The notes: generated by a model from the sequence alone, not told the origin. A stretch of DNA of 64,000 nt from a virus (IMGVR_UViG_3300014204_000115:51637-115636), one strand, 5' to 3'; shown: positions 20,252 to 29,899, numbered from the stretch's first letter. Numbers and translations are program-made.

Positions 20252-20530
20252 TTAATTTTTATATTTCCTTTTTTTCATTTCTGCAGATATTTCTCCTCTT
20301 AATTTAATTACACAATCTGGTTTAATTCTACCACTTCTAAATCCTGTTCCGGTTAAGTAATTCATAAGTATTCTTAATTTATCATCACTTGTTGAATTTA
20401 TAGATCCCATATAATGTCTTAATTGTTGACAACACCATTCTGGTTCTCCATTCCATTTTCCTAATAATGATTTTCTTACATTCTGCCACTCTGAATTATT
20501 TACTAATTCCATCATTGATTTTTTATTCAT
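20252..20530 (-). CDS. hypothetical protein
   Basis: 92 aa ORF in operon. Confidence 0.6.
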   Translation of the reverse strand: MNKKSMMELVNNSEWQNVRKSLLGKWNGEPEWCCQQLRHYMGSINSTSDDKLRILMNYLTGTGFRSGRIKPDCVIKLRGEISAEMKKRKYKN

Positions 20531-20877
20531 TTTAATTCCTTAATAATTGCTCCAGTAGAATATGATACCCAATCTGCCACTAAACGTCTATGACAAAAAC
20601 TACCTGGTTTTTCCCAACATAAAATAATTGAACCTTTTAAATCTTCATAAACTTTAAACGGATCCAATTTATTTAATTGTTCTTTATATATTCTTGTATA
20701 TTCTTGTATTGATATTTTTTTTGATTTATAATCTAGAACTAATTGTTTTGGTGGGATTAAATCTTTATATACTCTATATGAAAATTTTTTTCTAAATTCT
20801 TCAGGGGTTTGTCCAGCTATAGATACTAAATCTTCATAAATATTTAGTTTATCTGAAAAGAAATATGATGTTTTCAT
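20527..20877 (-). CDS. DUF488-like protein
   Basis: QEYTRIYKEQL..ILCWEKPGSFCHRRLVADW. Confidence 0.7.
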   Translation of the reverse strand: MKTSYFFSDKLNIYEDLVSIAGQTPEEFRKKFSYRVYKDLIPPKQLVLDYKSKKISIQEYTRIYKEQLNKLDPFKVYEDLKGSIILCWEKPGSFCHRRLVADWVSYSTGAIIKELK

Positions 20878-20892
20878 AATAACTCCTATGTG

Positions 20893-20965
20893 AGGTCCAG
20901 AAGAGAATTGAACTCTTAACGTCGATTTTTTAGAGAAATCCGTTCTACCATTGGACTACTGGACC
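20893..20965 (-). tRNA. tRNA with CUA anticodon (amber suppressor)
   Basis: acceptor GGTCCAG/CTGGACC; D arm GTCC-AATGGTA-GAAC (one mismatch); anticodon stem GATTT/AAATC with loop CT-CTA-AA; T arm AAGAG-TTCAATT-CTCTT; CCA not encoded. Confidence 0.85.
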
Positions 20966-20972
20966 TATTTTA

Positions 20973-21287
20973 TTACACTAATAATTTTAAATCACTTAAA
21001 AATCCTGCTTCATCTTCATCTAATAAACAACAAATTGCAGTTATTTCATTATCTAAATCTGGCTCCTTAAAAAGAAAAAATTCAATATTTCTTTTCTTAA
21101 ATTTAAATAACCAATTATTTAACCTATCTAAATTTTCAACTTCTAAATAGATTAAATATTGATTATTCCAGATTTTAGAATTCCTGGAGCTCAAACAAAA
21201 CTCTGCAACGCAATGTCCAGCCTGAACCCCAGGTGAAGAACATTTTAAATCTTTACGCACAATTACATATAACCTGTTGTTCTTCAT
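20973..21287 (-). CDS. peptidyl-tRNA hydrolase type 2 (Pth2)-like protein
   Basis: LYVIVRKDL..GVQAGHCVAE..FKEPDLDNEITAIC. Confidence 0.75.
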   Translation of the reverse strand: MKNNRLYVIVRKDLKCSSPGVQAGHCVAEFCLSSRNSKIWNNQYLIYLEVENLDRLNNWLFKFKKRNIEFFLFKEPDLDNEITAICCLLDEDEAGFLSDLKLLV

Positions 21288-21567
21288 ACTTCTTTAAAAT
21301 TTCCTTCTTGATTTTATCAATATAAAAATTATTAGCTGGATTTGAATCTGCAGGTTTTTCAATCTCTTCTCTTGTTCTTCCTCTTAATTCACAATAAGCT
21401 ATATGAGTGTGACGAAATTCATATTTCATTTGATTTATTACAGATTCAATAGTCCATAATTCTTTACCATTACGATTCTCAAAGGGTCTCTGATTTTTAA
21501 ATTCTCTAATTTCCTTGCCTAATTTTTTTAACTCTATTTTGGTATCTTTTAACATTTTTCTTGACAT
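21253..21567 (-). CDS. hypothetical phage protein
   Basis: 104 aa, FRHTHIAYCELRGRTREEIE; its SD lies in a hairpin. Confidence 0.7.
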   Translation of the reverse strand: MSRKMLKDTKIELKKLGKEIREFKNQRPFENRNGKELWTIESVINQMKYEFRHTHIAYCELRGRTREEIEKPADSNPANNFYIDKIKKEILKKYEEQQVICNCA

Positions 21568-21576
21568 TGTTTTAAT

Positions 21577-21630
21577 CCTCCTAAGATTGTTATTAAAATA
21601 TTATTTTTTATTTTAATAATTCTTAGGAGG
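21577..21630 (-). promoter_or_regulatory. SD-sequestering hairpin upstream of 21253..21567
   Basis: on - strand CCTCCTAAGA..TATTAAAATA / TATTTTAATA..TCTTAGGAGG; the 3' arm holds the AGGAGG 9 nt before the ATG at 21567. Confidence 0.75.
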
Positions 21631-21666
21631 GCCTCTAAATTGAACTTTATACTTAATCTACTTCAA
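21613..21666 (-). CDS. candidate 17-codon leader peptide with in-frame amber: M-K-(TAG)-IKYKVQFRGPPKNY
   Basis: SD-like GGGGGTGA (21672-21679), TTG start, TAG at codon 3, runs over the anti-SD arm. Confidence 0.4.
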
Positions 21667-21687
21667 TTTATTCACCCCCTTTTTTTA

Positions 21688-21897
21688 TTACTTTGTCCTC
21701 TTCTTTGTGGGCATCGACTTTAGTTCATCCATAACCTGAATTCTAAAATCCTGCCAGAGTGACTTGCTTACCTGAGCAAGTTTTCGAAGTTCTGGAGCTG
21801 AAACCTTTCTACCCTTTTCAAATTCTGCAAGCTCGGTTTTTGTATTATTTAATACCTGTTCCAATTCTCCAATTACACCTCTTAGTTTTTCTGACAT
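21688..21897 (-). CDS. histone H1-like (Hc1-type) nucleoid protein
   Basis: AEFEKGRKVSAPELRKLAQ..FR resembles the Hc1 ENGNKAAGTRARK pattern. Confidence 0.6.
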   Translation of the reverse strand: MSEKLRGVIGELEQVLNNTKTELAEFEKGRKVSAPELRKLAQVSKSLWQDFRIQVMDELKSMPTKKRTK

Positions 21898-29603: not shown

Positions 29604-29725
29604 TTTTGAAAAAATAAAATTTATGGAGATATTTTATGAAAAAAAAATATGTTTCGAGTTCAGAACCATCTGCTATCCAGAAATATTAATAATTGATTAA
29701 ATAAATAGAAAGGGGGGAAAATAAA

Positions 29726-29899
29726 ATGTCGGAATCTACATTAAAGTTGATTAAATCTGATCTGGATCGTATTGAAGATTTAATATCTATGATTCCAGAT
29801 TATGATGAGAAGAAAGAATTTTTAAAGTTGAGATATGAATCTCTCAAAAGATCATTCGAAAGTGTAGTAGAAATGGATGTAATTCTAAATAAAAGGTGA
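29726..29899 (+). CDS. small hypothetical protein (57 aa)
   Basis: manual translation MSESTLKLIKSDLDRIEDL...ILNKR*; SD AAAGGGGGG. Confidence 0.6.
   Translation: MSESTLKLIKSDLDRIEDLISMIPDYDEKKEFLKLRYESLKRSFESVVEMDVILNKR

What the first reader, a model, noticed from the sequence alone, without database searches (positions are those of the whole stretch)
21565..21680. Candidate amber-gated leader peptide unlocking an anti-SD hairpin upstream of the Pth2-like and suppressor-tRNA genes
Seen: right after the Hc1-like gene, the - strand reads GGGGGTGA-ATAAA-TTG AAG TAG ATT AAG TAT AAA GTT CAA TTT AGA GGC CCT CCT AAG AAT TAT TAA, i.e. M-K-amber-IKYKVQFRGPPKNY. The CCTCCTAAGA inside this ORF is the 5' arm of a ~20-bp hairpin whose 3' arm is the TCTTAGGAGG Shine-Dalgarno of gene 21253..21567. 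The next two genes are a Pth2-like protein and the CUA-anticodon tRNA. Known: ribosome melting of an SD-sequestering hairpin is how secM controls secA, and RAGP/RAPP-like motifs cause elongation arrest. Inference: only when the amber is suppressed can ribosomes reach (and perhaps stall at RGPP on) the anti-SD arm and free the SD, giving a tRNA-sensing switch or feedback loop on a translation-rescue module. Caveats: the start is TTG, PP is forced by any CCTCCT anti-SD, and the ORF is short.
Basis: partly seen in the sequence, partly recalled or inferred. Interest (0 to 1): 0.8.

Follow-up and report, generated by a model that had tools for sequence, protein, structure and literature searches.

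The report
Stop-codon-gated leader switch in phage
A 17-codon leader with an early UAG stop sits before a small phage operon that ends in the phage's own UAG-reading tRNA; about 80 divergent phage loci keep this design, so it most likely switches the operon on only when that tRNA reads through UAG, a natural switch I found in no paper.

Summary

**Window.** On the - strand there is an SD, a TTG-AAG-TAG leader ORF (21613-21666), R-G-P-P codons, and a 10+11 bp hairpin that buries the SD of gene X (21253-21567). A Pth2-fold gene and the phage's only tRNA (anticodon CUA) follow.

**Relatives.**
- About 70 of 73 distinct upstream regions have an SD, a start codon and one or two in-frame TAGs, with the anti-SD read as Pro-Pro. 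The strict pattern occurs in 58/73, against 1 with TAA as gate, 0 with TGA, and 0.18 in shuffles.
- Nine further loci fetched afterwards all fit.
- Arg of R-x-P-P uses AGA, AGG, CGT and CGA. The motifs are RGPP, RSPP, RAPP and RDPP, all published arrest or arrest-permissive motifs.
- One locus gates with TAA and carries a tRNA-UUA instead.
- The Pth2-like gene follows X in 60/60 loci, and tRNA-CUA follows in 40/43.

**Folding.** Median SD accessibility is 0.005 free, 0.003 with a ribosome at the TAG, and 0.56 with one stalled on Pro-Pro.

**Status.** The phage is not TAG-recoded. Everything is computational. I found no paper describing this. Earlier agents of this scan noted the same design in at least 8 other genomes.

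The parts
21673..21680 (-). Shine-Dalgarno-like GGGGGTGA of the leader ORF, 6 nt before its TTG start
   Evidence: Most relatives have a canonical SD (GGAG, AGGAG or GGAGG) 4-10 nt before the leader's ATG.
21613..21666 (-). Leader ORF of 17 codons plus stop: TTG 21664-21666, gate codon TAG 21658-21660, R-G-P-P codons 21625-21636, TAA 21613-21615
   Evidence: The homologous leader in L001 starts with ATG AAG TAG ATT and ends in FRGPP.
21621..21630 (-). Anti-SD arm of the hairpin (CCTCCTAAGA). Its first six bases are the two Pro codons of the leader.
   Evidence: I2: 10 nt, 100% complementary.
21590..21619 (-). Inner 11-bp A/U stem and 8-nt loop of the hairpin
   Evidence: I1.
21577..21586 (-). 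SD arm of the hairpin (TCTTAGGAGG), holding the SD of gene X
   Evidence: Unpaired probability is 0.0009, rank 1 of 152 genes.
21253..21567 (-). Gene X, 104 aa, a phage-only family with the motif FRHxHIAYCELRGRxRxQIE. The model shows three long helices; function unknown.
   Evidence: No Pfam or PHROG match. Alignment A1. AF2 pLDDT 89.9. 1296 clusters at E<=0.001. Natural fusions to the Pth2-like protein exist.
20973..21287 (-). Pth2-fold protein, 104 aa, overlapping the end of gene X by 35 nt
   Evidence: Pfam PTH2 E 0.0026, below cut-off. Profile against PDB Pth2 E 3e-4. AF2 pLDDT 95.3. Foldseek hits archaeal Pth2 at E 4e-6, TM 0.74-0.81. It follows X in 60 of 60 loci.
20892..20965 (-). tRNA with anticodon CUA (amber suppressor), the only tRNA in the held 179.6 kb
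   Evidence: It lies downstream on the same strand in 40 of 43 relatives with enough sequence.
21688..21897 (-). Upstream 69-aa gene, whose stop lies 21 nt before the leader start. It is conserved in L001.
   Evidence: In L022 the homologue ends in TAG and runs in frame into the RAPP leader.

Best explanation
This is a translational on-switch whose input is read-through of the UAG stop codon. The mRNA carries a short leader ORF with its own SD. In the window its third codon is UAG; relatives have one or two UAGs. Without a suppressor, ribosomes terminate there, about 30 nt before the hairpin. The SD of gene X then stays buried, and X and the overlapping Pth2-like gene are not translated. When the operon's own tRNA(CUA) decodes the UAG, the ribosome moves on to the Arg-Gly-Pro-Pro codons, which are themselves the anti-SD arm. 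[quoted passage not shown] In the K-P-P-stop variants it may simply sit or terminate slowly. Either way the stem is held open, the SD is freed, and X and the Pth2-like protein are made. Expression of the two proteins therefore reports that the suppressor tRNA is present, charged and out-competing release factor 1. Shown: the anatomy, its conservation, the frame coherence, the amino-acid-level selection, and the thermodynamic logic. Inferred: read-through, stalling, the direction of regulation, and what X and the Pth2-like protein do.
For: (1) The anatomy in the window is real, and the SD is the most sequestered of 152 genes. (2) The pattern 'ATG, 0-6 codons, TAG, open frame, Pro-Pro' occurs in 58 of 73 distinct upstream regions. 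With TAA as the gate it occurs in 1, with TGA in 0, and shuffles give a mean of 0.18 and a maximum of 2. Most of the remaining regions fit on inspection: the TAG lies later, or the upstream gene's TAG stop serves as the gate. (3) Of 69 leaders, 36 have one gate TAG and 33 have two, all in frame. The context is ACR-TAG-RTT, and the next base is a purine in 97 of 102 cases. (4) Most leaders have a canonical SD. (5) Selection acts on the peptide. Arg codons are AGA 30, CGT 6, AGG 4, CGA 1, and Ser uses both AGT and TCN. Motifs are RGPP 19, RSPP 9, RAPP 5, RGSP 4, RDPP 1. RGPP and RAPP give robust, EF-P-refractory arrest, and RSPP and RDPP are arrest-permissive (PMC12992588). The stall geometry comes from PMC10951233. 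(6) The hairpin arms covary: 0 of 5000 permutations reach the own-locus complementarity. The SD core is paired in the MFE structure in 64 of 73 regions. (7) Constrained folding of 68 leaders gives a median SD-unpaired probability of 0.005 free, 0.003 with a ribosome at the first or last TAG, and 0.56 with the first Pro codon in the P site. (8) Locus L057 has TAA at the gate position and a tRNA with anticodon UUA in the usual tRNA slot. (9) The cassette is fixed: Pth2-like in 60 of 60 loci and tRNA-CUA in 40 of 43. (10) All nine loci fetched later fit. (11) The Pth2-like gene itself carries an in-frame TAG near codon 33 in 19 loci. In the cultured phages RAS14, XacN1 and fHe-Yen9-03 it appears to begin M-K-TAG or M-S-H-TAG, and all three encode a tRNA-CUA. 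(12) The phage itself is not recoded. It is 92% coding in code 11, TAG ends 28 of 227 ORFs, and the CUA tRNA is its only tRNA.
Against: There are no experimental data of any kind, and no RNA data set holds this DNA. In the window the start is TTG and lies in a weak 9-bp A/U stem. Without a ribosome the leader's own G-run can compete for the anti-SD, giving an SD-unpaired probability of 0.31 in one context. In 33 of 69 leaders Pro-Pro is directly followed by a stop, mostly K-P-P-stop without the Arg, and some of these are only 8 codons long. A nascent-chain arrest therefore cannot be the universal mechanism. Three regions do not fit cleanly: L045 has an in-frame TAA, L085 has a 1-nt indel, and 9 of 73 lack SD pairing in the MFE structure. 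The TAA/UUA covariation rests on a single locus. The loci are related, so the counts are not independent events. The host, the amino acid inserted and the efficiency of the tRNA are unknown. No other target of the suppressor was found in this phage.
Confidence: 0.78

Rival explanations
1. The device is the same, but the variable it measures is release factor 1 rather than the tRNA. The leader would report the balance between RF1 termination and read-through, for example a fall in host RF1 activity during infection.
For: Read-through at UAG always depends on competition between tRNA and RF1. The conserved context (Thr or Pro before the TAG, a purine after it) could tune that competition.
Against: The gate is physically linked to a tRNA-CUA in 40 of 43 loci. 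It switches to TAA where the tRNA is UUA. UAA is read by both RF1 and RF2, so that change points to the tRNA as the matched partner. No RF gene or RF inhibitor was identified.
Confidence: 0.08
2. It is an ordinary arrest-peptide leader in phages that read TAG as a plain sense codon. The TAGs would be incidental and nothing would be sensed.
For: Some relatives have an in-frame TAG inside the Pth2-like gene, so TAG is decoded in these modules. TAG-recoded phages are known (bioRxiv 10.1101/2021.08.26.457843).
Against: This phage uses TAG as a stop in 28 of 227 ORFs and is 92% coding in code 11. Leaders of 8-35 codons carry one or two TAGs in about 70 of 73 regions, usually at codon 2-5, in a conserved context, while gene X carries none. 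The flanks gain as much ORF cover from reading TGA as sense as from TAG, so they show no sign of recoding.
Confidence: 0.06
3. The TAG simply ends a 2-5-codon mini-ORF, like the lambda bar minigenes that shed peptidyl-tRNA. The sequence behind it would be conserved only as RNA structure, and the mini-ORF would sense or load peptidyl-tRNA hydrolase activity.
For: Two- to four-codon ORFs upstream of a peptidyl-tRNA-hydrolase-like gene recall minigene and Pth biology (recalled from memory, not tested here).
Against: The frame stays open, and coherent with ATG and TAG, through a second TAG and through the Pro-Pro codons up to a TAA or TGA. Arg is conserved through synonymous codon families. A ribosome placed at the TAG does not open the hairpin in the folding model. 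The gate codon follows the tRNA anticodon in L057.
Confidence: 0.04
4. The hairpin is a transcription terminator or an RNA-stability or processing element for the upstream gene, and the short ORF is chance.
For: A strong hairpin lies in a 120-nt intergenic spacer directly after a gene.
Against: No U-tract follows the stem, and the terminator scan finds nothing. The 3' arm is the SD of the next gene in nearly all relatives. The ORF pattern is far beyond chance.
Confidence: 0.02

Closest known systems
RAPP/RGPP-type regulatory arrest peptides (ApdA, ApdP, ApcA; SecM with RAGP; Streptomyces RAPP/RGPP uORFs)
   Same: A small upstream ORF ends in Arg-(Gly/Ala/Ser)-Pro-Pro. The ribosome stalled there keeps a downstream SD-sequestering stem open, as in secM-secA. 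The motif set RGPP > RSPP > RAPP matches the published arrest-competent set (PMC12992588, PMC10951233).
   Different: Known examples are 'monitoring substrates': much longer proteins with signal or membrane segments, whose arrest is released by the secretion machinery. Here the leader has 8-35 codons and no targeting signal. Control lies before the arrest site, in whether the ribosome can pass one or two stop codons. A third of the family has K-P-P-stop in place of the Arg motif.
Leader-peptide attenuators that sense tRNA supply (trp, his, pheST leaders), and the engineered version with amber codons in a leader that responds to a suppressor tRNA (Liu, Qi, Yanofsky and Arkin 2011; recalled from memory, not read here)
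   Same: Ribosome progress through a few diagnostic codons of a leader reports the availability of one tRNA and decides the fate of a downstream RNA hairpin.
   Different: Those act on transcription terminators and sense charged sense-codon tRNAs. This one acts on an SD hairpin and senses a stop-codon suppressor. A natural amber-codon version was not found in the literature searches.
prfB (RF2) autoregulation through an early in-frame UGA
   Same: An in-frame stop codon near the start of translation serves as a sensor of decoding capacity at that stop codon.
   Different: prfB senses a release factor and escapes by +1 frameshifting within the gene itself. Here the frame continues straight through the stop, the escape is by a suppressor tRNA, and the regulated genes are separate cistrons behind a hairpin.
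Stop-codon-recoded phages and their 'code change modules' (suppressor tRNA, aaRS, release factor; Borges et al., bioRxiv 10.1101/2021.08.26.457843)
   Same: A phage-encoded suppressor tRNA occurs together with the idea that genes containing the recoded stop are expressed only after the tRNA acts.
   Different: This phage is not recoded, and the only clear in-frame TAG in the window is in the leader. The gate is a dedicated cis-regulatory element, not dispersed in-frame stops in late genes. That paper does not mention leaders, hairpins or Pth.

Membership tests
RAPP-like ribosome arrest peptides | C-terminal core R-(A/G)-P-P, or a permissive variant, in a small ORF | tested here: met
   RGPP in the window. 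RGPP 19, RSPP 9, RAPP 5, RDPP 1 among 69 leaders. The motifs are as listed in PMC12992588.
RAPP-like ribosome arrest peptides | Encoded directly upstream of, and in the same direction as, the regulated gene, whose SD is masked by a structure that the stalled ribosome opens | tested here: met
RAPP-like ribosome arrest peptides | Ribosome stalling demonstrated (toeprint, peptidyl-tRNA accumulation) | not testable with these tools
   This needs in vitro translation or ribosome profiling.
RAPP-like ribosome arrest peptides | Monitoring-substrate architecture: N-terminal signal or membrane segment, with arrest released by Sec/YidC | tested here: not met
   The leader has 17 codons in the window and 8-35 in relatives, and no hydrophobic segment.
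Peptidyl-tRNA hydrolase 2 (Pfam PF01981) | Score above the Pfam gathering cut-off | tested here: not met
   18.4 bits against a cut-off of 23, E 0.0026.
Peptidyl-tRNA hydrolase 2 (Pfam PF01981) | Pth2 fold | tested here: met
   AF2 pLDDT 95.3. Foldseek hits 2zv3, 3erj, 1xty, 1wn2 and 1q7s at E 4e-6 to 8e-4, TM 0.67-0.81. The family profile against PDB Pth2 gives E 3e-4.
Peptidyl-tRNA hydrolase 2 (Pfam PF01981) | Catalytic residues of Pth2 | tested here: inconclusive
   The Q-x-x-H and E-P-D motifs are invariant and align with Pth2. The Gly-Lys loop region of Pth2 aligns to a shorter, variable stretch. Which residues are catalytic is recalled from memory only.
Amber suppressor tRNA | Canonical cloverleaf with a 7-nt anticodon loop carrying CUA | tested here: met
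   ARAGORN; Rfam tRNA 52.9 bits; loop C-U-CUA-A-A. Suppression activity and amino-acid identity are not testable here.
TAG-recoded (code 15) phage | Many genes interrupted by in-frame TAG, low coding density in code 11, and TAG not used as a stop | tested here: not met
   92% coding in code 11; stops are TAA 168, TGA 31, TAG 28. TAG-joined ORF pairs are separate genes. Only 58% of the genome is held.
Transcription attenuator or intrinsic terminator | G+C-rich stem followed by a U-tract | tested here: not met
   No site in the scan. The stem is followed by ATTAAAACAATG.

The most novel reading that the evidence does not exclude
The four-part cassette is a self-contained homeostat for stop-codon suppression. 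The leader measures UAG read-through by the cassette's own tRNA. The two proteins made only when read-through is on are gene X and the Pth2-fold protein, which are fused in some phages. They would act back on the system, for example by hydrolysing peptidyl- or aminoacyl-tRNA(CUA), by releasing the arrested leader peptidyl-tRNA, or by rescuing ribosomes that ran through stop codons. A phage with a standard genetic code could then hold suppression at a set level. This would give 'orphan' suppressor tRNAs of large phages, such as those of XacN1, a target and a control circuit.
Probability: 0.25. Interest if true: 0.9.

Novelty: new variant of a known kind. Interest (0 to 1): 0.8.

Why it matters
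Leader-peptide switches are known to sense amino-acid supply, antibiotics, secretion capacity and release factor 2. A natural switch that senses whether a stop codon is being read through has, as far as I could find, not been described; only engineered versions exist.

It would explain why many large phages with a standard code carry a lone amber-suppressor tRNA. The authors of phage XacN1 could not find its targets (PMC5852040).

It also ties a large phage-only protein family (gene X, at least 1296 clusters) and a Pth2-fold family to suppression. It extends RGPP-type arrest motifs to phages and to very short peptides. Finally, it offers a compact natural part for genetic-code-expansion circuits.

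Cultured phages with a simpler, in-gene version of the gate (XacN1, RAS14, fHe-Yen9-03) make the idea directly testable.

Tried and rejected
- **DNA and protein searches in cultured phages.** DNA search of the region in the cultured-phage collection found no match. tblastn of gene X, two members, against that collection found no match.
- **Bacterial and archaeal genomes.** The gene X pattern scan of species genomes found no relative. The scan is pattern-limited, so this is not proof of absence.
- **Fold of gene X.** Only generic helical hairpins matched: Foldseek E > 1 and VIA Z <= 7. The profile against PDB gave nothing.
- **RNA families.** Rfam on the window found only the tRNA.
- **Other amber leaders in the 179.6-kb genome.** One intergenic hit at 29712-29741 was rejected after reading it: it has no SD, no hairpin and no gene nearby.
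- **Other targets of the suppressor.** Read-through extensions after TAG stops are no longer than after TAA. The two TAG-joined ORF pairs in the window have their domains wholly on one side of the TAG.
- **ORF cover of the relatives' flanks with TAG read as sense.** Uninformative, because TGA gives the same gain.
- **Sequencing runs.** No RNA holder is listed. Contigs of a second metagenome laid on the region are identical where they cover the leader, so they add no variation.
- **Amino acid inserted by the tRNA.** Discriminator bases vary, and the TAG column of the Pth2-like alignment lies in a variable loop, so no call was made.
- **Technical notes.** A first SD-accessibility ranking used a fixed -14..-6 window that missed the SD and was replaced.
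- **Not run.** Complex prediction for X with the Pth2-like protein was not run, because natural fusions already argue that they work together.

Full report
**1. What is in the window**

All features lie on the - strand. After a 69-aa gene (21688-21897) comes a 120-nt spacer with these elements:
- an SD-like GGGGGTGA (21673-21680);
- a short ORF, TTG AAG TAG ATT ... TTT AGA GGC CCT CCT AAG AAT TAT TAA (21666 down to 21613);
- a hairpin whose 5' arm begins with the two Pro codons (CCTCCTAAGA, 21621-21630) and whose 3' arm (TCTTAGGAGG, 21577-21586) holds the SD of the next gene, ATG at 21567.

An inner 11-bp stem brings the hairpin to 21 bp. The region folds at -33.3 kcal/mol, z = -6.4. No U-tract follows the stem, and no terminator-like site is found.

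Downstream lie three genes:
- Gene X (21253-21567, 104 aa) has no Pfam or PHROG family.
- An overlapping 104-aa protein (20973-21287) has a Pth2 fold: Pfam PTH2 E 0.0026, below the cut-off; model pLDDT 95.3; Foldseek hits archaeal Pth2 at E 4e-6 with TM up to 0.81.
- A tRNA with anticodon CUA lies at 20892-20965.

Among the 152 genes of the held genome with a recognisable SD, that of gene X is the most sequestered. Its unpaired probability is 0.0009, against a median of 0.52. Only the label 'Hc1-like' for the upstream gene could not be confirmed.

**2. The genome**

The window is part of a 179.6-kb viral record from a landfill metagenome, estimated 58% complete, with 26% G+C. In code 11 it is 92% coding. 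Of 227 ORFs, 168 end in TAA, 31 in TGA and 28 in TAG. The CUA tRNA is its only tRNA.

TAG-terminated genes do not have unusually long in-frame extensions. The two TAG-joined ORF pairs in the window are separate genes. This is not a TAG-recoded phage. In the window, the only clear in-frame TAG is the one in the leader.

**3. Relatives**

Gene X served as the anchor.
- A first scan gave three viral loci at 39-63% identity. All three have, upstream of X, an SD, an ATG, a short ORF with one or two in-frame TAGs, R-G-P-P, and an anti-SD hairpin. Each has a tRNA-CUA downstream.
- An alignment of 19 homologues (A1) then brought in 12 viral and 80 metagenomic loci, giving 73 distinct upstream regions.
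- The strict pattern 'ATG, 0-6 codons, TAG, no TAA or TGA, Pro-Pro' within 160 nt occurs in 58 of 73. The same pattern with TAA as the gate occurs in 1, and with TGA in 0. Shuffled sequences give a mean of 0.18 and a maximum of 2.

Reading the exceptions shows that most fit once the limit on TAG position is relaxed:
- L014, L033 and L062 have the TAG at codons 9-16.
- L022 uses the TAG stop of the upstream gene as its gate, running in frame into RAPP.
- L085 differs from a fitting relative by one base in a G-run.
- L045 has an in-frame TAA.
- L057 is discussed in section 5.

Nine further loci were fetched afterwards from distant members of the family. All carry the leader: for example MFK-TAG-VHLCHNRAPP..., MTH-TAG-IFKPP-stop and MT-TAG-IQIPP-TAG-IRGPP-stop.

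**4. Evidence that the leader is translated and selected as a peptide**

- Most leaders have a canonical SD 4-10 nt before the ATG.
- Of 69 leaders, 36 have one gate TAG and 33 have two, always in the frame that reads the anti-SD as Pro-Pro. An anti-SD alone would be free to sit in any of three frames.
- The TAG context is conserved as ACR-TAG-RTT. The next base is a purine in 97 of 102 cases, and the preceding residue is Thr in 54 and Pro in 12.
- The residues before Pro-Pro form two classes. One is R-(G/S/A/D)-P-P: RGPP 19, RSPP 9, RAPP 5, RDPP 1, plus RGSP 4. The other is x-K-P-P, followed directly by a stop. In all, Pro-Pro is immediately followed by a stop in 33 of 69 leaders.
- Arg is encoded by AGA (30), CGT (6), AGG (4) and CGA (1). 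Ser is encoded by AGT and by TCN. The amino acid is therefore conserved, not the nucleotides.
- The first class matches what Fujiwara et al. report. RGPP and RAPP are the most robust arrest cores, are refractory to EF-P, and tolerate varied and short N-terminal contexts. RSPP and RDPP are arrest-permissive (PMC12992588).
[quoted passage not shown] Here that places the anti-SD inside the ribosome.

**5. Link to the tRNA**

- The Pth2-like gene follows X in 60 of 60 loci with enough sequence.
- A tRNA-CUA lies downstream on the same strand in 40 of 43, usually within 100 nt of the Pth2-like stop.
- In two loci (L016, L174) the order is rearranged, but the leader stays with X.
- In L057 the gate codon is TAA (M-Y-P-S-G-F-T-TAA-A-V-R-G-S-P), and the tRNA in the usual slot has anticodon UUA. 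This is the covariation the model predicts, but it rests on one locus.
- In 19 loci the Pth2-like gene itself has an in-frame stop near codon 33, and it is TAG in every case.
- X and the Pth2-like protein are fused into one polypeptide in several phages.

**6. The hairpin**

- The SD core is paired with the upstream segment in the minimum-energy fold of 64 of 73 regions.
- The 10 nt flanking the CCNCC and GGNGG cores differ widely between loci: there are 59 distinct 5' flanks among 69. They nevertheless match their own partner better than partners from other loci. The own mean is 6.0 against a cross mean of 5.35, and 0 of 5000 permutations reach the observed value.
- Partition-function folding with a ribosome footprint held single-stranded gives these median SD-unpaired probabilities over 68 leaders: 0.005 for free RNA, 0.003 with the first TAG in the A site, 0.003 with the last TAG in the A site, and 0.56 with the first Pro codon in the P site.
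- Termination at the gate therefore leaves the switch closed. Arrival at Pro-Pro opens it.

**7. Interpretation**

I put it at about 0.78. I would modify it in three ways:
- The arrest peptide is probable for the R-x-P-P class, which includes the window. It cannot be general, because a third of the family has very short K-P-P-stop leaders. What is universal is that a ribosome must pass the gate and occupy the anti-SD.
- The element belongs to a fixed four-part cassette (leader, X, Pth2-like, tRNA), not just to a neighbourhood.
- The gating of the Pth2-fold protein by UAG is wider than this leader. In the cultured jumbo phages Stenotrophomonas RAS14, Xanthomonas XacN1 and Yersinia fHe-Yen9-03, the Pth2-like reading frame appears to start M-K-TAG or M-S-H-TAG. 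In RAS14 and XacN1 the amino-acid conservation runs up to the TAG, upstream of the annotated starts. RAS14 and fHe-Yen9-03 each encode a tRNA-CUA, and XacN1 does so according to its paper, whose authors could not find targets for its suppressors (PMC5852040). None of these phages has gene X.

What X and the Pth2-like protein do remains open.
- X is a confident three-helix model with an invariant H-x-H-I-A-Y-C-E-x-R-G-R motif and no informative structural match.
- A feedback role on the suppressor, or on ribosomes that have read through stops, is attractive but untested.
- One relative has a tmRNA gene in the tRNA slot, which fits a ribosome-rescue theme.

**8. Novelty**

Full-text searches for combinations of suppressor tRNA, amber codon, leader peptide, anti-SD, phage and peptidyl-tRNA hydrolase found no description of such a switch. 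The main paper on recoded phages mentions neither leaders, hairpins nor Pth.

The mechanism combines known parts: an SD-sequestering hairpin, a leader ORF and an RxPP arrest core. The new element is the input. I therefore rate it a new variant of a known kind.

Within this scan the design has been reported before on other DNA. At least eight earlier AI notes describe the same cassette in other genomes. I read them only after my own analysis, and they agree with it.

**9. Limits**

- Everything here is computational.
- The loci are related, so counts overstate the number of independent events.
- The host, the inserted amino acid and the tRNA's efficiency are unknown.
- Only 58% of the genome is held, so suppressor targets may lie elsewhere.
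- The window's leader starts with TTG.

Noticed in passing
L014, L017, L044, L053, L056, L058, L061, L064, L065, L071, L072, L075, L077, L080, L083, L085, L092, L093, L096 (Pth2-like genes): The Pth2-like gene carries a single in-frame stop near codon 33, in a variable loop after the QAGHA helix. It is TAG in all 19 cases, so gene callers will split or miss these genes.
   Followed up: partly
L102 940-1800 (Stenotrophomonas phage RAS14), L103 940-1800 (Xanthomonas phage XacN1 ORF364), L105 about 1480-1800 (Yersinia phage fHe-Yen9-03): In these cultured jumbo phages the Pth2-like reading frame appears to begin M-K-TAG or M-S-H-TAG. In RAS14 and XacN1 amino-acid conservation runs upstream of the annotated starts, and in Yen9-03 the gene is unannotated. 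All three phages encode a tRNA-CUA, and RAS14 also a tRNA-UUA.
   Followed up: partly
L077 3422-3828: A tmRNA gene (Rfam 102 bits, tag ANAPMAIAA) lies after the Pth2-like gene, where relatives have the tRNA-CUA.
   Followed up: no
L061 2141-2219 and L083 2422-2500: In the slot of the suppressor tRNA sits a tRNA called Tyr(GTA) by ARAGORN. Its anticodon stem appears to close a 9-nt loop (AATGTACAC). Its decoding is unclear.
   Followed up: no
L176 324-397: ARAGORN reports a tRNA with a four-base anticodon (cttg) near the cassette.
   Followed up: no
L016 and L174: The cassette is rearranged: tRNA-CUA and the Pth2-like gene lie upstream of the leader and gene X. The leader stays attached to X.
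   Followed up: partly
window 21636-21670 (- strand): A second, weak 9-bp A/U hairpin encloses the leader's TTG start in its 5' arm and the TAG in its loop. The leader's G-run can also compete for the anti-SD. Conservation in relatives was not examined.
   Followed up: no
window 20527-20877 (- strand): A DUF488-family gene (PF22751, E 1e-7) follows the tRNA directly. Whether it belongs to the cassette in relatives was not checked.
   Followed up: no
L104 734-806 (Prevotella phage Lak-A2): A tRNA with anticodon UUA lies about 700 nt upstream of the Lak phage's Pth2-like gene. No gene X and no leader of this kind were seen there.
   Followed up: no
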